From a virus, in the UHGV virus genome UHGV-2078504: DNA of 27,255 bases, one strand, 5' to 3'. The position numbers and the translations under genes were made by a program. Position 1 is the first letter of the stretch, and every line of letters starts with the position of its first letter. Below the pieces are notes generated by a model that was not told the DNA's origin, ran no database searches, and was given only the letters and a program-made list of their open reading frames with translations. Shown in pieces: positions 1,739 to 10,242 of this stretch.

Positions 1739-1935
1739 TACTGGCTGCGACATTTTTGAATAAAAGCGTCGACATTTCGGCGCTCATAACGAACTACTTT
1801 TGCACTGAAACGAATTGGTGCCAGGATAGCCCGATGACGATGCTTAATATTCCACTCACATAGCGTTTTCTGTGTAATACCTAACTTTTGGCATACTTCA
1901 TCCGGGGTGAGTAAATCGTCGGGTTTCTCGCTCAT
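1735..1935 (-). CDS. AlpA/excisionase-like small DNA-binding protein (Xis or transcriptional regulator)
   Basis: 66-aa ORF, LLTPDEVCQKLGITQKTLCEW helix-turn-helix typical of the AlpA/Xis family; sits beside the integrase and is start/stop-coupled to the upstream helicase gene. Confidence 0.7.
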   Translation of the reverse strand: MSEKPDDLLTPDEVCQKLGITQKTLCEWNIKHRHRAILAPIRFSAKVVRYERRNVDAFIQKCRSQY

Positions 1936-3326
1936 GCTATACCTCTCTTTTTCATGGCATCGAGCAGGATGTCCTGCACTGTTCGTTTTGAGTTGCGCCG
2001 CTCCATCACCATTTCGTCCATAGTGTCGGCAGCAATAATGTGGTGAATAAATACCGGACGATTGTGTCCGGCCTGTATCTGTCTGGTTGGGCCGATACGT
2101 TCAATAATTTGCTGATACTGCTCCAGGTCCCACCAATGTGAGAAAAATACCAGTATGTTTCCGCCGTCCTGCATGTTCAGACCGTGGCCCGCGCTGGCTG
2201 GGTGTGCAAAGAGAACAGGAATCTTTCCGGAATTCCAGTCACGTAGTGTCTGTGGATCCTGGTCGAGGTGACGACCGCGAGGAAATGCTTTAAGCAAGCG
2301 TTCAAGATCGTGTTTCCAGTGATAAGCAACCAGCACAGGTGCGCCAGCTGCTTCGGTCAGTATGCTGTCCAGCGCCTGTAGTTTGGTGTCATGCAGTTCT
2401 GACCAACTTCCGGTGTCATCTGTGTATACTGCGCCGCTGGCGATTTGCAGACACTTCAGTGTCTTTGCCGCGGCGTTCGGTGCTTCGATGCCTTCGCCAT
2501 TCAGCTCGAGGAACATTTCCTTTTCCATTTCACGATACTGCTGACGGGCCTTCGGCGGCATATCCACGCGGATTACGTTATGGATGGGGTCTTTGATATC
2601 GAACCAGTCGGCCGCATCCAGCGAGAGGGTCACATCGGCTAATGCTCGCTGTATTTCACCCTGTGAGTGAGCAAAAGGTTCCAGTTTAGTCCAGCTCTGT
2701 CCCGGAAACTGTATCGAGTTGAACCAGCGTGAGGTAAACGCGCCGTAAGTGCGCCCGAGACGTTGCCCTTGGTCCACAAACCACGATTGTCCCCACAAAT
2801 CTACCAGGCCGTTCGGTGCTGGCGTACCGGTGAGATTTATCCAGCGCCGGACATACTTATGCGCCACTTTGCCCAGCGCCGCCGCGCGCTTACCACCACC
2901 TCGCAGCCGGAAGGATTTTAGCCGGGTGCTTTCATCTGGAATGACAGTTCCGAACGGCCATCGTTCTCCCAATTCTTCAACCAGCCAGACAAGGTTATCG
3001 TAGTTGATGGTGAACACGCTCGCGTTGCTGTTCGCCAGCGCCGTAGAGCGCGCTTTGGCGTTACCGATGATCGGCTGTACCTCAATATTACGCAGATGCC
3101 CCCATTTAACAGCTTCATCAGGCCAGGTGCTTGCTGCAACGCGTAGCGGCGCGAGGACCAGCGCGGGGTGTGTTTCTGCTCCAGCCATGAAAAGATCTTC
3201 CAGCGTGGTGAGTGTCGCTACGGTTTTACCCATCCCCATCCCTGCCCAGATGTTGCCGCGCAGAATGTCGGTTTGGTGATTGATTATGAGGTTTTGATAA
3301 AGTCGGGGGTGGAATATGTTATTCAT
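1932..3326 (-). CDS. SNF2-family DNA helicase/ATPase
   Basis: 464-aa ORF with Walker A GMGMGKT, DEST (DExx-like) motif II, LTGTP and a C-terminal helicase region (GHGLNMQ). Confidence 0.8.
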   Translation of the reverse strand: MNNIFHPRLYQNLIINHQTDILRGNIWAGMGMGKTVATLTTLEDLFMAGAETHPALVLAPLRVAASTWPDEAVKWGHLRNIEVQPIIGNAKARSTALANSNASVFTINYDNLVWLVEELGERWPFGTVIPDESTRLKSFRLRGGGKRAAALGKVAHKYVRRWINLTGTPAPNGLVDLWGQSWFVDQGQRLGRTYGAFTSRWFNSIQFPGQSWTKLEPFAHSQGEIQRALADVTLSLDAADWFDIKDPIHNVIRVDMPPKARQQYREMEKEMFLELNGEGIEAPNAAAKTLKCLQIASGAVYTDDTGSWSELHDTKLQALDSILTEAAGAPVLVAYHWKHDLERLLKAFPRGRHLDQDPQTLRDWNSGKIPVLFAHPASAGHGLNMQDGGNILVFFSHWWDLEQYQQIIERIGPTRQIQAGHNRPVFIHHIIAADTMDEMVMERRNSKRTVQDILLDAMKKRGIA

Positions 3327-3390
3327 TAATACACCTATGGTAGAATATGTGTCAATTCTCTCTCTATATATATAACTAACGGAGGCGGGT

Positions 3391-4188
3391 ATGCCCCTGG
3401 CAAAAATACTTACAAAACAAGTTTCTTTATTAACTGTTTTTTCAGCGTTAGCTTATGCGATGGCATATTCTTTTCAGAAAGGTGTTGCATCGTATTATGG
3501 CTATCCAGCCCTTTTTATTAAAATAGATTTAAATACGCTATTGTATTCGGCTGTATGGCTTTTGTTTTTTAGTTTTTTATTTCTCGGTGCCTTATACGCG
3601 ACATTGATGTTTGATTTGAAAGGGAAATATTATGTTCCATTTATTATATTTATAGTGGTTATGCTAATACCTAATTTTTACATAATAGGATTTCATTGGC
3701 CTTTTGGTTATTTCTCCGAAACCTCTGTGATGAGTGTTGGAGATATTTTATTATTTGCTCTGCTTTTGTTGAATTACCACAATGCGGTGTCCGCGTCAAT
3801 CCATAGTAAGAGACACGAACATCATATGGATAGCATTAGAAAGTTTGGGAGGCTTGCAGAGTATAAAGACGTATTTTATTATATCGATTTAAAAATCCTA
3901 AAATCAGCTTTTCCTTTAGGGGTGATGACATTATTGATATTGAGCTATACCTTCGGGAAGGTTACTGCATTTAAAAATAACGAATATTATATGGTAGATG
4001 GTAGTAATACTAAAGTGTTGCTCAATTCATTTGGTAGTGGTTTTGTTGTTGGTGATTGTGAGTCCAATAGCGCAAAATTTGAATTTGTTAATGATTTAAA
4101 AGGGATGAAATTCACAGTTATGTCCTCTAAAAAGGAAATAGCTAAATTAAAAGAGTGTTTCGAAACACGTGTTAAAAATACGGATTAA
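3391..4188 (+). CDS. Hypothetical AT-rich membrane protein (moron; N-terminal multi-TM region plus C-terminal soluble domain)
   Basis: 265-aa ORF with GGAGG Shine-Dalgarno 5-6 nt upstream; several hydrophobic helices (VSLLTVFSALAYAMAY, LLYSAVWLLFFSFLFLGALYATLMF, VPFIIFIVVMLIPNFYIIGF, ILLFALLLLNY); strongly AT-rich compared with flanking genes; opposite strand to the surrounding operon. Confidence 0.65.
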   Translation: MPLAKILTKQVSLLTVFSALAYAMAYSFQKGVASYYGYPALFIKIDLNTLLYSAVWLLFFSFLFLGALYATLMFDLKGKYYVPFIIFIVVMLIPNFYIIGFHWPFGYFSETSVMSVGDILLFALLLLNYHNAVSASIHSKRHEHHMDSIRKFGRLAEYKDVFYYIDLKILKSAFPLGVMTLLILSYTFGKVTAFKNNEYYMVDGSNTKVLLNSFGSGFVVGDCESNSAKFEFVNDLKGMKFTVMSSKKEIAKLKECFETRVKNTD

Positions 4189-4200
4189 AGCATAAGTCTT

Positions 4201-4488
4201 TTATCTTTTATTGCGGCTTAAAATAATTTCCTCCAGATTTTTGCTATCCAGCACCACCACGGTAAAGCCCAGCTCGCGCAGCCGCTCGTGCTCGCGCAAC
4301 TGGTCGGCGCGTGGTGCTTTGCCGGGTGCTTTGCATTCAACGAAAACAAGACGGCCGCCGGGTAGCAGAACAATGCGATCCGGTACCGAGCGGCGACCGG
4401 GAGATACGAACTTAAAGGCCACACCGCCAGCCTTTTTCACTTCAGCGACGAGGTGCTTTTCGATAAGGCTCTCACGTTCATAAGACAT
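4201..4488 (-). CDS. VRR-NUC domain nuclease
   Basis: 95-aa ORF with PD-(D/E)xK-like core (PDRIVLLPGGRLVFVECKAPGK); GC-rich like the core operon; family commonly partners SNF2 helicases in phage replication modules. Confidence 0.7.
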   Translation of the reverse strand: MSYERESLIEKHLVAEVKKAGGVAFKFVSPGRRSVPDRIVLLPGGRLVFVECKAPGKAPRADQLREHERLRELGFTVVVLDSKNLEEIILSRNKR

Positions 4489-4548
4489 AAATTTGCCTTG
4501 TTAACACTTATTGGGTAGTATCAAATAAAACAAGTATAAGGAATTAAT

Positions 4549-5577
4549 ATGTCACGAATCTTATTTCCCTCTTCATGTAATCCTGAAAAGATATTTAATT
4601 TTTGCAATGAAATTGAAAAACATTCAGGTCAACAGCAAATAACAATCGATTTTTCGCATATGGGAAGGATTGAACCATTTACAATGGTTTATGTTGCTAA
4701 GCATATTCGAGACTTCCATCGAAAACAGAAAAAGAACATTGATGGTTTTAAACTTTTTTGTAGCGGGCATGAGAATAAGGATTATGCCGCAAATATGGCA
4801 TTCTTTCGAGCCTTCGGGTTAAAGCATGGCCGTGAACCGGGATGTACAGATGGAAATAATAATTTTGTTCCATTTACAATTCTTCGTGTTCAAACAGTTA
4901 TAGATGAAGCTAACGATAAATATACTGAGGTGCAAGAGATAGTTGAGGAACGATCTGGTAAATTAGCAAAGATTCTTGCTCGCCAAGAAGAAGGCGACCT
5001 CATTGATGCTTTGACATTTTCTATTAGGGAAATTATGCGTAATGTTGTGGAACATAGTGATTCAAAGGTGATTGAATATTGTGCACAGTATTGGCCTTCT
5101 TATGACCGTGTTGAAATAACAATTTCTGATAATGGTATAGGAATGAAAAAATCTCTATCGAAGAACCCTTATATAGAAGCTGATAATGATTCTGAAGCCA
5201 TTCAGTTAGCGTTAATGCCATCTATTTCTAGTAAAAATTTTAAGGGGGCGAGAATCAATACAAGAAATCCTTGGCATAATTCGGGATTTGGCCTTTATAT
5301 GATCAGCCGTATATGTAAACTTGGCGGTAGTTTTCTTATTTGTAGCGGTGACCATGCAATATATCTAGATGAACACGGAAAGAAGCATATAGAGTTAGGT
5401 CATTATCATGAAGGAACTGTCGTTAGAATGGTGTTGAATACTAAAAAACTTGGTTCCTTAAGCTCAATGCTTACGCAGTTTAAGGAGGATGGCTACAAAA
5501 TAGCTGCAGAAATAAAACATACTGGAGTTTATACAGCATCAGCTGCTTCGCAGATGTTATCTAGGGATTTTAAGTGA
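4549..5577 (+). CDS. Hypothetical protein with C-terminal GHKL/histidine-kinase-like ATPase domain (moron)
   Basis: 342-aa AT-rich ORF; C-terminal half carries N-box-like REIMRNVVEHS, G1 box ISDNGIGM and G2 box NSGFGLYMISRI characteristic of HATPase_c (histidine kinase/anti-sigma-factor kinase/GHKL) folds; N-terminal ~110 aa of unknown function. Confidence 0.7.
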   Translation: MSRILFPSSCNPEKIFNFCNEIEKHSGQQQITIDFSHMGRIEPFTMVYVAKHIRDFHRKQKKNIDGFKLFCSGHENKDYAANMAFFRAFGLKHGREPGCTDGNNNFVPFTILRVQTVIDEANDKYTEVQEIVEERSGKLAKILARQEEGDLIDALTFSIREIMRNVVEHSDSKVIEYCAQYWPSYDRVEITISDNGIGMKKSLSKNPYIEADNDSEAIQLALMPSISSKNFKGARINTRNPWHNSGFGLYMISRICKLGGSFLICSGDHAIYLDEHGKKHIELGHYHEGTVVRMVLNTKKLGSLSSMLTQFKEDGYKIAAEIKHTGVYTASAASQMLSRDFK

Positions 5578-5584
5578 CTTTGTA

Positions 5585-7648
5585 TTACTCCTTACGGTAG
5601 TGGTACGCCTCAAAGCCGCCAGCATTCAGCGGAATATCGGGTGCCCATTCGGGGTTAGTGGAGAGAAGCGCGGAAAGCGCTTTATCGTTGAAATCTTCTG
5701 TGTCAGGTGCTTCGGTGATCACCTCGTCGTGTACCGTCAGCACAATGCTGTAACCGGCATCTTCGATAAGCGGCATGTTTCCGGCCAGAATGTCGCGGGC
5801 GGCCGCCTGGGTGATGTTCTCCACCAGCTTTCCGCCGTAGGTTTTGAGTCGTTGCCATTTACGCGAATAAGAGTTAACCCCCATGTAGGTGATATTCCCT
5901 TTTTCGATAACCGGAGACGGGTAGCATACAGCGCGTCCGGATGGTAGCTGTATGCGCAGCCACGCGCCATCGCGGCGGATTTTAAGATAACCGCAATACA
6001 ATGTTTTTTGCGGTGTGGCGATTGCAGTGCGGACGGTGCGCTCCAGTTCGTACCAGAAATCACAGGTCGCGGGATGCGCCCGGCGCCAGAGACGTTTAAG
6101 TGAGTCGCAGGCGATAAATACCCGTTCAGAAAGCCCGTAGGTTGACTTGCGTTTAACCGATTCGTCGTACCAGCTTTTCGCCTCGCGGATAACATCGCGG
6201 GGAATGTTTGGTAGTGCGGCGTTCGCCAGCTCGTCGAGATCGAGACCGTAAACCAGTGCAAAAGTGATGAAGGCCGACACACCACCACCATAACCCAGAC
6301 CGAGTTCCATGACTTTACCGATCTGACGCATGTGTTTATCAACATCATCTGGTGCAATATCGAAAGCTTTTGCATACGCCAGTTTATATAAGTCCGGACC
6401 CGTTCCGGCGTCGTACTCTCTGAATGCATTCAGTTTCCATTCTTCTCCCGCCAGCCATGCCAGCATACGGCCTTCAATGTTCGACAAGTCACTTACCACC
6501 AGCTTTTTGCCTGTTGGCGCGATAATGCAGCCACGTAACGCTGAACTGGTTAGTTCCATGATATTGTCAAACAGCAGGTCTGCACATCCGGCTTTCAGTG
6601 CTTCGATGCCTTCGTCTATTTGTTCCTGTTTTAGTGAAGGGCGGGGAAGGTTCTGGGGCTGGAATAGCCGTCCGGCCCAACGACCGGTACGTGACGCCCC
6701 GCAGAACTGTAGCGTACCGCGTAAGCGCCCGTCGTGGCTTACGCCTTTCATCAGTGCCTTGTATTTACTGGTGCTGGTAGTACTGGCCTGCAGGCGGATA
6801 GCCAGCAGTTCTTTCACGGCAGATGGTAAATCGGGGTCGGCAATACGACGTTCCAGAGTACTGCGTTGCATGTCTGGTAGCTCCACACCGTAGGATTCAA
6901 CAATGTGCTTAATCAACGCGTCTCGTTGTGTGGCTGCCTGCACTTCGCCATCAGTCATTTCCTGTGTACGCTTTGCCAGGCGCTTTTGTTCCTGGTCTAC
7001 CACGTCGATCGCAGCGCGTGCGAGTTCCACGTCCATGCAGACGCCCCGGTCATTGATCTGCTGATCACGATGCCAGAGCGCCAGTTCTGTCCCCTGATAA
7101 TTCCACTTCGGCAGACGTTTATAGACTTCGCGCATTGCCTCGATATCCAGTCCGGCGTAAGCAACAAAGCGCCGCCATTCTTCCGGGTGGGTTTTGCTGG
7201 TGGCCCGGCGCAGTTTGCTGTTTTTCGGGCGTGGCTTACAGAACAGCTGGATCAGCGCTTTACCTTCTTTGTCCTTCGCTTTGTCTTGCGGGACGCCTAG
7301 TACTTCGCAGAGTTCCCCCAGAGACCCCGGGAGACCGTGCGCCAGCGCCTGCACCATTGTGTCGCGCCAACGTTCGACTGGCGGTGCTAGGCGCGGCATT
7401 GCATAACGCAGGACGGTGCGGTCGAAGTGAGAGTTATGAAAATAAAGTAGGGTTTCAGGGGCTGCGATTGCTTCGTATAAGCCGTGTGGAATACCACCAC
7501 CGGCAGTGATATCCCACACGTTTACTGGTCCGTCGTTGATAGCCCATGCGAAAAGCATCACTTCAACGCCTTCGGCATACGCATGGGTACCGTTCGTAAT
7601 AGGGATTTCGCAATAGGTTTCCAGGTCGCCCCATAGTATATTGGACAT
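5585..7648 (-). CDS. Family A DNA polymerase with N-terminal 3'-5' exonuclease domain
   Basis: 687-aa ORF; Exo I-like WGDLETYCE; polymerase motif [12 protein letters not shown], motif [13 protein letters not shown], motif C LTVHDEV. Confidence 0.85.
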
Positions 7649-7694: not shown

Positions 7695-8324
7695 ATGCAT
7701 ATGATCCAATACTTGATTGACCATACAGAGCATCTGGAGAAAATAGCTGGATATATTTTTTCATGTTTGATTGTTATGGGAGTCTGGATAAGAAAGATCA
7801 TTTTTAATTATAAGTATAAAGAGCCTAAATATGTCAAGAAGTTAATTTTATATTTAATTAAGTATGAACGTTATCTGGATAAGGAGGATAAGAAAGCCAT
7901 AGAAAAAAGAATAAATGATAAAATTATTCGTGATGCGCTGAAATTGCAATCCTCTTATAACCGAAGTGATGTTATTTACATTTGCAATAGATTAGAAAAA
8001 AGACAGTATATAAATCAGTTGATTAAGCTTCAGAATTATATAGAGAAAGATAACGGAGTGTTTTTTATTAATGTTGATTTTTCAGGTTTTTTATTTATTG
8101 TTAGTCGTCTGTTTTCCTTTCTGTGTTTTGTGCTGTTTACCCTTTTTTCTATTATCTGCATTATTTCCATAGGGCAAAATGAAGGCCTTTTAAATTATCT
8201 TGTGTATATGGTTATGATAATAGTTTTAGAGACTGTTGGTTTTTGGATGTATGATACTTTCCCGTCTAAGAAAAAGATCTGTGAACTAAATAAAGAATTG
8301 AGAAAGATTAAGATTCCTGAGTGA
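7695..8324 (+). CDS. Hypothetical AT-rich membrane protein (moron)
   Basis: 209-aa, very AT-rich ORF on the opposite strand to the operon; N-terminal TM helix (IAGYIFSCLIVMGVWI), lysine-rich soluble segment, then two or three C-terminal TM helices (FLFIVSRLFSFLCFVLFTLFSIICIISIG, LVYMVMIIVLETVGFWMY). Start could be 7695 or 7701. Confidence 0.6.
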   Translation: MHMIQYLIDHTEHLEKIAGYIFSCLIVMGVWIRKIIFNYKYKEPKYVKKLILYLIKYERYLDKEDKKAIEKRINDKIIRDALKLQSSYNRSDVIYICNRLEKRQYINQLIKLQNYIEKDNGVFFINVDFSGFLFIVSRLFSFLCFVLFTLFSIICIISIGQNEGLLNYLVYMVMIIVLETVGFWMYDTFPSKKKICELNKELRKIKIPE

Positions 8325-8940: not shown

Positions 8941-10242
8941 TCAGATGAGGTCTGCGGTTAGCGTATCGTCGGATACGTCGTCGAAATCATTTACAGGGTT
9001 GATATTGAGTGCGGGGCGTGGGTCTGACTCGGGAACGACGGTGGGTTTACCATCAGCTCGTGTTATCAGTGCCTCGACTTTTGACCAACGGCGCGGACTG
9101 GCCTTTTTGATAAGTTTTTCGGCTTTTGTGGGACTAATAAGTTTAAAGTCGAATACTTCTTCAGTTTTGTACCTGAACTGGTCCTTCAGAAGTGCGCGAG
9201 CTGCCTCTTCATCACTCCAGGCCCGGTTACCTTGTTTTCCTGTTACCAGTTTAAACCCCGGTACCGGATGTCCGGCATTGAGTTCATTGTGAACCCGGTC
9301 CCGTACTGCCTTTAGCCAGGATTCAATAAAGTCGGCCTGGCTATAGATCTCCGCAAGCTGCTCAATGGTTAACAGAGGTACACGTGCGCTGGCATTGGTG
9401 ATTATTTCGCTGACAGGCTTTGTCAGATCTTCAAAGTCGCTGGCCGCTGTTTGTAAATGCTGCATTTTCTGGGCAGTGCAAATAGCTTTTGCTTTACAGA
9501 AGCGGCACTGTTTTTCTCCAGGTATGAAGTTTTCCAGCGGTAGTGTCTCAATGCCTTCGCATTCAGCAATATTGAGAACAAGGATCGCACTGGTTGCGGC
9601 CTCCTGTGCCCGTTCACCGAAAGACTGAAGTTCCTGTACGGTTAATGACCATTCTGAAACGTGGTTGAGCCTTGGCTGGTGAATAAATAATCTTACAGTC
9701 TCAAAGTCATACAGCATGCTGAATTGTTCGAGCGCACCCAGAGCATACAGTTGTAGTTGCTCATTTTGTTCTGCATCAATGCGGACGCCTTTGCCATATT
9801 TCAGGTCGTGGATTTGTAATTCGTTACCAGCGATGATTATGCCGTCGGCAGTTCCGAAAGATTCTTCCACCCCCGTTATATGTGAGAAATCAACACGTTG
9901 TTCAACCAATAGTTCATTATTCTGTGCAAGAGTCCAGACCGTATCAACATACCGGCCAACGGCTTCGACCATTTCATCATCCACCTGTGGGCCAGATGTA
10001 TTATCAGGATTTTCGCGAAGGGGGTATGAGCCGAGAAACATAGAAACATTGCATCCGGCGTAGTGTTCCGGGTGGCTTTGCCTGTTTCGTAGAACTTTTT
10101 CAGCAAGCGCGTGCGCTGCAGTGCCCTCGATTGCAAAAGTTGTTTCTTTATCCGGTTGTGTGGCCTCCAGCGCCAGACTTCCTGGGCAGCGCATCCATCG
10201 ATGCGCTGATGATGGAGAAAGTTGTGCATGAACGTCTGGCAT
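8941..10242 (-). CDS. DUF2800-like PD-(D/E)xK nuclease with Cas4-like cysteine cluster
   Basis: 433-aa ORF; N-terminal [15 protein letters not shown], nuclease-like core (IHDLKYGKG), C-terminal cysteines [10 protein letters not shown]; acidic C-terminal tail ...[15 protein letters not shown]. Confidence 0.65.

What the first reader, a model, noticed from the sequence alone, without database searches (positions are those of the whole stretch)
3391..4188. AT-rich membrane protein inserted between SNF2 helicase and VRR-NUC genes
SNF2 helicase and VRR-NUC nuclease are normally neighbours in phage replication modules. Here they are separated by a 265-aa opposite-strand ORF that is visibly AT-rich, has a good GGAGG ribosome-binding site, a hydrophobic N-terminal half with about four predicted TM helices and a soluble C-terminal ~120-aa domain (…NNEYYMVDGSNTKVLLNSFGSGFVVGDCESNSAKFEFVNDLKGMKFTV…). 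A membrane-anchored moron at an operon junction is a typical arrangement for superinfection-exclusion or abortive-infection proteins. It may also act together with the GHKL-ATPase gene 360 bp away on the same strand (3391-5577), bracketing the VRR-NUC gene.
Basis: partly seen in the sequence, partly recalled or inferred. Interest (0 to 1): 0.6.

Follow-up and report, generated by a model that had tools for sequence, protein, structure and literature searches.

The report
Swappable prophage membrane-protein gene, function untested
An AT-rich gene in an E. coli prophage encodes an inner-membrane protein of an uncharacterised family, and it sits in a swappable slot that in sister prophages holds known anti-phage genes, so it is a reasonable but untested candidate for blocking infection by other phages.

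Summary
The ORF is real: 3391-4188(+), 265 aa, 32.6% GC against about 54% in the flanking SNF2 and VRR-NUC genes, with a GGAGG RBS and dN/dS of 0.12-0.24. The window is an E. coli prophage integrated beside yfhL.

A confident AlphaFold2 model (pLDDT 90) shows five transmembrane helices and a C-terminal beta domain of only about 70 aa. Charge distribution and a co-varying Cys223/Cys256 pair place that domain in the periplasm.

The protein belongs to a rare, uncharacterised family: PF27470 "TfpB" on homologues, and phrog_35408. It has no significant fold or defence-database match.

The gene is a self-contained cassette of about 930 bp in a hypervariable slot. Of 162 E. coli genomes with this prophage backbone:
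- 17 carry this allele.
- 22 carry a second allele (27% identity over the aligned region).
- The rest mostly carry BstA (a proven abortive-infection protein), a TIR-like protein, DUF6338 or a Rha/Arc cassette.

Relatives also occur as single genes at other accessory positions in unrelated prophages and as chromosomal orphans. The gene is not coupled to the GHKL ATPase gene: 7 of 17 and 7 of 11 co-occur, and each is found without the other.

My best reading is a lysogen-expressed protein that excludes other phages at the cell envelope. That function is inferred, not shown.

The parts
3300..4230 (.). Exchangeable accessory cassette ('slot 1' between SNF2 and VRR-NUC). Its ends lie inside roughly the first 9 codons of SNF2 and the last 10-13 codons of VRR-NUC.
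   Evidence: blastn against sister prophages that carry other cassettes loses homology at 3290-3325 on the left and regains it at 4222-4241 on the right (4305 in the distant Yersinia prophage). GC falls to 0.32 across this stretch.
3338..3346 (+). Predicted extended -10 promoter element, TGgTAGAAT. The predicted transcription start is near 3353, giving a 5' UTR of about 38 nt. It overlaps the SNF2 ribosome-binding region on the other strand.
   Evidence: Read directly from the sequence. The same TGnTAGAAT is kept upstream of orthologues in IAI1, Raoultella and a decayed remnant, and TGnTAAAAT or TGnTATTAT occurs upstream of family members in unrelated contexts. The generic two-hexamer promoter scan did not flag it, and no transcript data exist.
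3381..3385 (+). Shine-Dalgarno sequence GGAGG, 5 nt upstream of the ATG.
   Evidence: Read directly.
3391..4188 (+). CDS for a 265-aa inner-membrane protein of the TfpB-like family (PF27470 on homologues).
3427..3534 (+). TM1 (residues 13-36) plus periplasmic loop 1 (37-48). This is the most conserved part of the family: Y22, Y26, G31, G37, P39, F42, I43, D46, in the motif 'AYxFQKGxAxYYGYPxxFIxIDLN'.
   Evidence: Alignment of 64 family members. Per-segment conservation is highest here.
3529..3846 (+). TM2 (47-76), TM3 (81-99) and TM4 (116 to about 133), followed by a basic, His-rich cytoplasmic helix running to residue 152.
   Evidence: AlphaFold2 model with pLDDT 90.3 and pTM 0.86. Lys+Arg density is high in the loops predicted to be cytoplasmic.
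3889..3975 (+). TM5 (residues 167-195), with near-invariant G189 and A193 in its outer half.
3976..4185 (+). C-terminal domain of about 70 aa (five beta strands, then helix 247-264), predicted to be periplasmic. The codons for Cys223 (4057-4059) and Cys256 (4156-4158) encode the protein's only two cysteines.
   Evidence: for the fold. The two Cys columns co-occur across the family (33 with both, 29 with neither, 2 mixed out of 64). The positive-inside rule holds in 60 of 64 members.
1932..3326 (-). SNF2-family helicase gene, the conserved left flank of the slot (context, not part of the cassette).
   Evidence: PF00176, 1.9e-11. It is 90-96% identical in E. coli sister prophages with other cassettes and 88.7% in the related phage.
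4201..4488 (-). VRR-NUC/PD-(D/E)XK nuclease gene, the conserved right flank. It converges on the target gene with a 12-nt gap.

Best explanation
The region is a self-contained, horizontally mobile accessory cassette (a 'moron') in the early replication operon of an E. coli prophage integrated beside yfhL.

What it encodes. One 265-aa inner-membrane protein of the uncharacterised TfpB-like family (PF27470, phrog_35408). The N-terminus is cytoplasmic and there are five membrane helices. The conserved surface (the outer half of TM1, loop 1 and the outer half of TM5) and a disulfide-braced beta domain of about 70 aa face the periplasm.

How it is probably expressed. It most likely uses its own extended -10 promoter and is transcribed against the direction of the repressed lytic operon, so it would be made in the lysogen.

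What it most likely does. It acts alone at the periplasmic face of the inner membrane to protect the lysogen from other phages. The likeliest mechanism is interference with genome entry (superinfection exclusion), by analogy with P22 SieA. Membrane-level abortive infection is less likely.

Shown here: gene reality, cassette boundaries, polymorphism of the slot, family membership, predicted architecture and topology, and independence from the GHKL gene.
Inferred only: expression in the lysogen, and any anti-phage activity or mechanism.
For: Composition and selection
- GC is 0.33 against 0.54 in the flanks.
- Family members read in nine different loci are all 32-34% GC, in Escherichia, Raoultella, Enterobacter, Yersinia and Serratia.
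- dN/dS is 0.12-0.24.

The slot is polymorphic
- 162 of 5426 complete E. coli genomes share the backbone.
- Slot contents (genome counts for each cassette sequence; its position in the slot was checked only in the representative loci fetched): this allele 17; a second TfpB-like allele 22 (hhalign probability 99.4%, E 1e-21, 27% identity over the aligned region); BstA 11, and BstA plus Dcm 15-36; a TIR-like 305-aa protein 24; Rha/Arc 8-19; DUF6338 3.
- All share the same breakpoints.

It works as a single gene in many contexts
- Same slot in a Raoultella prophage (87% identity) and in Yersinia prophages (24% identity).
- Between dinI and the lambda-P homologue in an Enterobacter lambdoid prophage.
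- Next to int-xis in an E. kobei prophage.
- Upstream of the lysis genes in a Lelliottia prophage.
- Next to the integrase of a Prim-Pol element.
- As orphans in Serratia and Izhakiella, and kept in a decayed prophage remnant.
- No partner gene is conserved across these contexts.

Structure and topology
- pLDDT 90.3 model.
- Lys+Arg is higher in the predicted cytoplasmic loops in 60 of 64 members.
- The Cys pair co-varies: 33 with both, 29 with neither.
- Conserved residues cluster on the periplasmic half of the membrane.

Promoter
- An extended -10 element is conserved across unrelated contexts.

Analogy
[quoted passage not shown] It exists as three types about 25% identical to each other at one fixed prophage position (PMC10883804). 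The same pattern is seen here.
Against: - There is no functional evidence at all.
- None of 64 family members matches PADLOC 2.0.0 convincingly.
- A motif conserved across distant taxa, including Bacillus and MAG members, fits a conserved host target or an enzymatic or transport activity at least as well as it fits phage-specific recognition.
- Some distant members sit among housekeeping genes.
- No terminator follows the gene, and the generic promoter scan was not above chance.
- The second allele is frameshift-truncated in at least one genome fetched, and the one-base length difference suggests the same in others, so selection to keep it is not universal.
- tblastn found no hit in 50,697 deposited phage genomes.
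Confidence: 0.4

Rival explanations
1. Single-protein abortive infection. The membrane protein stays inactive until a phage cue arrives, either through the periplasmic domain or through the basic, His-rich cytoplasmic helix. It then depolarises or permeabilises the inner membrane and kills the infected cell.
For: - It occupies the same slot and orientation as BstA, a proven abortive-infection protein (PMC8585504).
- It is a five-helix bundle with a conserved membrane core and a more variable soluble domain.
- It is a stand-alone gene with no partner.
Against: - There is no cytoplasmic sensor domain of any size. The only globular domain is predicted to be periplasmic.
- There is no similarity to known membrane effectors in PADLOC.
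- Nothing indicates toxicity.
Confidence: 0.15
2. Lysogenic conversion unrelated to phage defence. The protein acts at the outer face of the inner membrane on a conserved host component, such as a lipid-linked glycan, an envelope precursor or a transporter, and changes surface properties or physiology.
For: - The most conserved residues (Y22, Y26, G31, G37, P39, I43, D46, G189, A193) form a site on the periplasmic side that is kept even in Bacillus and MAG homologues.
- Orphan chromosomal copies exist among housekeeping genes.
- One homologue sits beside int-xis. From my own knowledge, that is where O-antigen-modifying genes lie in some phages.
Against: - No match to any enzyme or transporter family in Pfam, NCBIfam or PDB.
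- There are no obvious catalytic acid/base pairs beyond one Asp and a Gln/Glu.
- The company it keeps in the slot is defence and regulatory genes, not surface-modification genes.
Confidence: 0.2
3. It works as a two-gene system with the neighbouring GHKL ATPase (4549-5577), bracketing VRR-NUC.
For: - Both genes are AT-rich, on the + strand and 360 bp apart.
- They occur together in 7 complete E. coli genomes, all carrying the >=98.9%-identical form of the gene.
Against: - 10 of 17 carriers of this gene lack the GHKL gene, including IAI1, where slot 2 holds a TIR/PDC-S35 gene.
- 4 of 11 GHKL carriers lack this allele. Strain A4 pairs GHKL with the other TfpB-like allele, and 3 genomes carry GHKL in a thrW island.
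- The two genes lie in separately exchangeable slots divided by a conserved VRR-NUC gene.
- Family members elsewhere have no GHKL neighbour.
Confidence: 0.05
4. It is a type IV pilus accessory or modulating protein, as the Pfam name TfpB and the TfpY/FimB-like pilin accessory proteins might suggest.
For: - The Pfam label on homologues is 'TfpB'.
- TfpY-like proteins likewise have N-terminal membrane helices and a periplasmic C-terminal beta-rich domain (PMC11841053).
Against: - TfpY-like proteins have three, not five, membrane helices and a different domain layout.
- No pilin gene lies nearby in the window or in any of the roughly 15 homologue contexts inspected.
- From my own recollection, the Pfam name may simply come from an uncharacterised Moraxella ORF. 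I could not verify this.
Confidence: 0.05

Closest known systems
Pfam PF27470 'TfpB' / PHROG phrog_35408 (uncharacterised membrane-protein family)
   Same: - Homologues at 57-87% identity carry precomputed PF27470 hits.
- A profile built from the window protein and six relatives at 57-87% identity retrieves 75 family representatives of 224-335 aa (plus a few short fragments) out of 1.84 billion proteins.
- 16 of 64 members match phrog_35408.
- Members share an architecture: a conserved TM1 and loop motif, G189 in the last membrane helix, and a C-terminal beta domain.
   Different: - The family has no assigned function, and the local Pfam copy lacks the model, so I could not read its curated description.
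- The enterobacterial branch, which includes this protein, has a Cys pair and a C-terminal helix that about half of the family lacks.
P22 SieA superinfection-exclusion protein (PMC10883804)
   Same: - Both are small prophage-encoded inner-membrane proteins encoded by a single gene.
- Both occur as several types only about 25% identical to each other at one fixed position in related prophages (compared).
   Different: - There is no sequence relationship. The SieA motif FxRYPxEAxxFNK is absent from this protein.
- SieA is 162 aa with 3-4 membrane helices and a conserved cytoplasmic motif. This protein is 265 aa with 5 helices and a conserved periplasm-facing motif.
- The prophage family and the position in the genome differ.
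- SieA function is demonstrated; this protein's is not.
BstA (prophage abortive-infection protein, PMC8585504)
   Same: It occupies exactly the same slot, breakpoints and orientation in sister E. coli prophages. It is also a single-gene, prophage-borne accessory function.
   Different: BstA is a soluble DNA-binding protein (PADLOC also reports an HTH hit) and is unrelated in sequence. The link is positional only.
TfpY/TfpX/TfpZ/FimB-like pilin accessory proteins (PMC11841053)
   Same: Both have N-terminal membrane helices followed by a periplasmic beta-containing C-terminal domain, with the conserved sequence concentrated in the membrane part.
   Different: - Three helices against five, and a different C-terminal domain topology.
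- TfpY-like genes are always next to a pilin gene, which is not the case here.
DUF6338 family protein (alternative occupant of the same slot)
   Same: It is about 206 aa with a hydrophobic N-terminal half and a soluble C-terminal part, sits on the + strand in the same slot, and is also uncharacterised.
   Different: It is annotated as a different Pfam family. No family member matched DUF6338 in the local Pfam scan.

Membership tests
PF27470 TfpB-like family | Significant match to the family profile | tested here: met
   Met indirectly. The local Pfam copy lacks PF27470, so the window protein itself gives no hit. Its homologues P0006 (63% identity, 99% coverage) and P0009 carry unmarked PF27470 hits (E <= 1e-5), and P0002 and P0007 carry weak ones. 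A profile built from the window protein and six relatives at 57-87% identity finds P0009 at E 1.1e-33.
PF27470 TfpB-like family | Shared architecture: conserved TM1 and loop motif (Y22, G31, G37, P39, I43, D46), Gly in the last membrane helix, C-terminal beta domain | tested here: met
   Alignment of 64 members and the conservation profile. The model built with that alignment reaches pLDDT 90.3.
Moron (independent accessory transcription unit in a phage genome; PMC3594210) | Present in some but not other closely related phage genomes, with atypical base composition | tested here: met
   Present in 17 of 162 genomes that share the backbone, with at least six alternative cassettes at the same breakpoints. 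GC is 0.33 against 0.54.
Moron (independent accessory transcription unit in a phage genome; PMC3594210) | Own promoter and terminator | tested here: inconclusive
   An extended -10 element, TGgTAGAAT, lies at 3338-3346 and is conserved in other contexts. The generic scan was not above chance and found no terminator after the stop codon. No transcript data exist.
P22 SieA family | Sequence homology, including the motif FxRYPxEAxxFNK, and a position between genes 16 and 9 of P22-like prophages | tested here: not met
   The motif is absent from the 265-aa sequence (compared). The context is a PolA/SNF2/VRR-NUC replication module.
P22 SieA family | Blocks DNA injection by superinfecting phage | not testable with these tools
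   Requires phage challenge together with K+ efflux or DNA-entry assays.
Known or candidate defence systems (PADLOC-DB 2.0.0) | Match to any defence-protein profile | tested here: not met
   The window protein has no hit at E <= 1. None of 64 family members has a credible hit.
Two-gene system with the GHKL ATPase | Consistent co-occurrence and co-location of both genes | tested here: not met
   7 of 17 target carriers and 7 of 11 GHKL carriers have both genes. Each occurs without the other. Homologues elsewhere have no GHKL neighbour.
TfpY/FimB-like pilin accessory proteins | Three N-terminal membrane helices, a periplasmic mixed-beta domain, and a gene adjacent to a major pilin gene | tested here: not met
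   The model has five helices. The neighbours are phage replication genes. Direct sequence or structure comparison with TfpY was not possible.
Core replication-module gene of this phage lineage | Fixed in all related phages | tested here: not met
   Absent from the three sequenced relatives vB_EcoM-606R2, 689R2 and 611R5 (read in detail for 689R2) and from 145 of 162 E. coli prophages with the backbone.

The most novel reading that the evidence does not exclude
TfpB-like proteins (PF27470, phrog_35408) are a previously unrecognised family of single-gene anti-phage proteins that act at the cell envelope, with a fold unlike any solved structure. Through a conserved periplasm-facing site and a variable, disulfide-braced periplasmic domain they would block phage genome entry. 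Alleles of about 25% identity compete with BstA and TIR genes for one hotspot in a widespread enterobacterial prophage lineage.
Probability: 0.3. Interest if true: 0.65.

Novelty: new member of a known kind. Interest (0 to 1): 0.45.

Why it matters
If the protein does exclude phages, it would give a function to an orphan Pfam and PHROG family. It would add a structurally new, single-gene mechanism acting on the periplasmic side to the short list of characterised superinfection-exclusion proteins.

It would also establish the three opposite-strand slots of this PolA/SNF2/VRR-NUC prophage lineage as a compact defence hotspot that is easy to mine. BstA, PDC-S35/TIR, GHKL, DUF6338 and two membrane-protein families are already visible there.

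If it does not, this is simply one more uncharacterised prophage accessory gene.

Tried and rejected
Searches that gave nothing useful
- Local Pfam, NCBIfam and PADLOC scans of the window protein gave no hit. PHROGs gave only a marginal one (phrog_35408, E 0.008).
- The first AlphaFold2 run, with only 7 close sequences, was unusable (pLDDT 50). The 64-sequence alignment fixed this.
- A profile search of PDB sequences gave only compositional matches to membrane proteins.
- The search for related loci rejected the diverse alignments. With the close alignment it found nothing in species-representative genomes, and only near-identical prophage copies in IMG/VR.
- A hand-made degenerate motif scan found two further enterobacterial members among 18 hits.
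- Two profile searches of the 5.8-billion-protein set saturated on hydrophobic words and added nothing.
- tblastn of both alleles against 50,697 phage records found nothing.
- Literature searches for TfpB, PF27470 and the RefSeq accessions found nothing relevant, and the original Moraxella tfpB papers are not held. The origin of the Pfam name therefore rests on my recollection only.

Ideas considered and rejected
- A GHKL partnership, rejected on the co-occurrence counts.
- A core replication role, rejected because the gene is not fixed in the lineage.
- A holin or lysis role, rejected because the gene is in the wrong module and on the opposite strand here, although one Lelliottia homologue does sit upstream of lysis genes.
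- A pilin accessory role, rejected because there are no pilin neighbours and the number of membrane helices differs.
Full report
**1. The observation**

The window is a prophage. A tyrosine integrase (335-1738) is followed by a minus-strand early operon:
- DUF2800 nuclease
- DUF2815 ssDNA-binding protein
- family-A DNA polymerase (5585-7648)
- VRR-NUC (4201-4488)
- SNF2 helicase (1932-3326)
- an HTH protein

The region searched (1932-7648) is 100% identical to part of the chromosome of E. coli PS1Thumoskin9. The 871-bp target region is also identical in XH993, where the element lies beside yfhL/shoB.

It is 265 aa with an ATG start and has GGAGG at 3381-3385. It lies on the opposite strand to its neighbours. 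Its GC is 0.326 (GC3 0.301), against 0.537 and 0.538 for SNF2 and VRR-NUC.

It is a real gene under purifying selection. dN/dS is 0.24 against the IAI1 orthologue and 0.12 against the Raoultella one.

**2. Anatomy of the protein**

With seven close sequences AlphaFold2 failed (pLDDT 50). With a 64-member family alignment it gave pLDDT 90.3 and pTM 0.86. The model shows:
- Helices at 13-36, 47-76, 81-99, 116-152 and 167-195.
- Beta strands at 200-202, 208-214, 217-224, 227-233 and 241-243.
- A final helix at 247-264.

So there are five membrane helices. The globular C-terminal domain is about 70 aa, not about 120 aa.

Three lines of evidence place the N-terminus in the cytoplasm and the C-terminus outside:
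- Lys+Arg residues are concentrated in the N-terminus, loop 2 and the long loop 4 (11 in the target), against 2 in loops 1 and 3. Across the family the inside count exceeds the outside count in 60 of 64 members.
- The target's only two cysteines, C223 at the end of a strand and C256 in the final helix, occupy columns that are both Cys in 33 members and both non-Cys in 29, with 2 exceptions. This is the signature of a structural disulfide, and so of a periplasmic domain.
- The most conserved positions (Y22, Y26, G31, G37, P39, F42, I43, D46, G189, A193) all lie in the outer half of TM1, in loop 1 or in the outer half of TM5.

**3. The family**

Local Pfam, NCBIfam and PADLOC give nothing for the window protein. 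PHROGs gives only a marginal hit. A word-seeded search of 5.8 billion proteins finds only seven clusters at 57-100% identity. Several carry a precomputed Pfam hit to PF27470, named 'TfpB' in the context tables.

An exhaustive HMM search of 1.84 billion representatives finds 75 proteins at E <= 1e-3. Apart from a few short fragments they are 224-335 aa. Where they have names, these are 'hypothetical protein' from Serratia, Yersinia and Enterobacter, with a few from Bacillus cereus and MAGs. Sixteen of 64 members match phrog_35408, whose function is unknown.

Other searches were negative:
- No family member convincingly matches any Pfam-A model in the local copy, any NCBIfam model or any PADLOC model.
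- A profile search of PDB sequences gives only compositional hits.

I recall that 'TfpB' is the name of an uncharacterised ORF in the Moraxella bovis pilin inversion region. I could not verify that this is the source of the Pfam name.

**4. The slot**

blastn against sister prophages shows that homology ends at 3290-3325 and resumes at 4222-4241, or at 4305 in the distant Yersinia prophage. The exchangeable unit is therefore about 930 bp. It includes the first few codons and the ribosome-binding region of SNF2 and the last few codons of VRR-NUC.

Of 5426 complete E. coli genomes, 162 carry the backbone. The counts below are genomes that hold each cassette sequence. Position in the slot was checked only in the representative loci I fetched.

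| Cassette between SNF2 and VRR-NUC | Genomes |
|---|---|
| This allele | 17 |
| Second TfpB-like allele (236 aa; hhalign probability 99.4%, E 1e-21; 27% identity over the aligned region) | 22 |
| BstA (PADLOC 1.4e-115) | 11 |
| Second BstA type plus a Dcm methyltransferase | 15 complete, 36 with partial matches |
| 305-aa protein with a weak TIR-effector hit (also in the induced phages vB_EcoM-606R2, 689R2, 611R5) | 24 |
| Rha/Arc regulatory cassette | 8 complete, 19 with partial matches |
| DUF6338 membrane protein plus a small ORF | 3 |

The second TfpB-like allele is frameshift-truncated to 195 aa in at least one of the genomes fetched.

A Yersinia prophage of the same lineage carries a third TfpB-like allele in the same slot (24% identity). 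It occurs at two different chromosomal integration sites. A Raoultella prophage carries an 87%-identical copy.

Two further slots behave the same way:
- VRR-NUC to PolA, which here holds the GHKL ATPase. Elsewhere it holds TIR/PDC-S35 plus ANR, DUF4406 plus ANR, or YfbU.
- PolA to DUF2815, which here holds an AT-rich 209-aa membrane protein (phrog_10579).

Evidence for both slots.

**5. Other contexts**

Family members also occur in these places:
- Between dinI and the lambda-P replication gene of an Enterobacter hormaechei lambdoid prophage, on the opposite strand.
- Immediately after int-xis in an E. kobei lambdoid prophage, on the opposite strand.
- Upstream of the holin and endolysin genes in a Lelliottia prophage.
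- Beside the integrase of a Prim-Pol/DUF927 integrative element.
- Next to a VRR-NUC gene in a decayed remnant of the same phage type.
- As orphans after proBA in Serratia and in an AT-rich island with YafO in Izhakiella.
- Among ordinary chromosomal genes, for some distant members.

The nine family genes whose DNA I read are all 32-34% GC, whatever the host. No neighbour is conserved across these contexts, so the gene functions alone.

Upstream of the orthologues there is a conserved TGnTAGAAT. TGnTAAAAT or TGnTATTAT lies upstream of members in unrelated contexts. This is consistent with a self-contained extended -10 promoter. The generic two-hexamer scan does not flag it, and no terminator follows the gene.

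**6. The GHKL idea**

The GHKL gene (PF02518, phrog_3364) is in 11 complete E. coli genomes.
- Seven of them also carry the target.
- Strain A4 pairs GHKL with the other TfpB-like allele.
- Three genomes have an 86%-identical copy. In the one examined it lies in a thrW island next to a VRR-NUC pseudogene.

Conversely, 10 of 17 target carriers lack the GHKL gene. In those where slot 2 was read or listed, it holds TIR/PDC-S35 (IAI1 and others) or YfbU. The two genes sit in separately recombining slots, and nothing indicates that they depend on each other.

**7. Mechanism**

*Shown here*
- The gene is an accessory, horizontally exchanged single-gene cassette.
- It encodes a five-helix inner-membrane protein whose conserved site and disulfide-braced domain are predicted to face the periplasm.
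- It sits in a hotspot that alternates between proven and candidate defence genes.
- Highly divergent alleles of the family occupy the same position in related prophages.

*Inferred*
- It is expressed in the lysogen from its own promoter.
- It protects against other phages at the envelope, most probably by interfering with genome entry at the inner membrane.

The closest functional parallel is P22 SieA. That is an inner-membrane protein which alone blocks DNA injection, and it exists as three types about 25% identical to each other at one fixed prophage position (PMC10883804). There is no sequence relationship, and the SieA motif is absent.

*Rivals*
- Membrane-level abortive infection.
- A lysogenic-conversion or envelope function unrelated to defence. 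This is favoured by the motif being conserved even in Bacillus and MAG homologues and by the housekeeping contexts of some distant members.
- A pilus-related role, which is unlikely. TfpY/FimB-like proteins have three helices and always sit next to a pilin gene (PMC11841053).

I put the exclusion reading at about 0.4, including its well-supported anatomical part. All defence-type readings together come to about 0.55.

**8. Verdict**

The moron interpretation is well supported, and the GHKL partnership is not. The function remains untested.

This is a new, well-delimited member of a familiar kind of feature, a prophage accessory membrane protein in a defence hotspot. It belongs to a catalogued but uncharacterised family with no structural relatives. 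It is moderately interesting as a candidate for a simple phage-challenge experiment.

Noticed in passing
window 4549-5577 (+): A 342-aa GHKL/HATPase_c protein (PF02518 1.3e-7; phrog_3364 2.5e-33; weak PADLOC hit to the N-terminal region of DrmA), 36% GC. It is a separate opposite-strand cassette in the VRR-NUC to PolA slot. Sister prophages hold a TIR/PDC-S35 gene, DUF4406 plus ANR, or YfbU there. An 86%-identical copy sits in a thrW island next to a VRR-NUC pseudogene and dptF (L037).
   Followed up: partly
window 7695-8324 (+): A third AT-rich (29% GC) opposite-strand gene, encoding a 209-aa membrane protein (phrog_10579, 1e-106, unknown function) between PolA and DUF2815. This slot also varies between sister prophages: other hypothetical proteins sit there in L032, L033 and L035.
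   Followed up: partly
L036 2515-3225; L032 1731-2318: A second TfpB-like allele (236 aa, 27% identity to the target over the aligned region) occupies the same slot in 22 E. coli genomes. In EH2252 it is frameshift-truncated to 195 aa, losing the end of the beta domain and the Cys-bearing helix. The one-base length difference suggests the same truncation in the 99.1%-identical group.
   Followed up: partly
window 3299-3345 and 4201-4241: The recombination breakpoints of the cassette lie inside the coding ends of SNF2 and VRR-NUC. Each cassette therefore brings its own SNF2 start region and RBS, which overlaps the target's predicted promoter, and its own VRR-NUC C-terminal codons.
   Followed up: partly
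L001 1458-2375 (-) and 3105-3866 (-) (Escherichia phage vB_EcoM-689R2): The induced, sequenced relatives of this prophage carry a 305-aa protein with a weak TIR-effector hit in slot 1, and a CAP12/Pycsar-type TIR protein (PADLOC PDC-S35, 1e-108) in slot 2. Both lie on the same strand as the replication operon.
   Followed up: partly
L038 1735-2498: A DUF6338 membrane protein plus a 47-aa ORF occupy slot 1 in three E. coli genomes. Its general layout (hydrophobic N-terminal half, soluble C-terminal part) resembles the target's, but it belongs to a different family.
   Followed up: no
L002 11612-12871 (E. coli XH993): In strain XH993 the otherwise near-identical prophage has an IS1 insertion truncating the DUF2800 nuclease gene, so that copy is probably defective. 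The gene is intact in the window (8941-10242).
   Followed up: no
L030 7001-11719: A distant TfpB-like member (P0033, 15% identity) is followed on the same strand by an unannotated 1106-aa protein and a 195-aa protein, and is preceded by an N6/N4 methyltransferase. This could be a different multi-gene arrangement for the non-Cys branch of the family.
   Followed up: no
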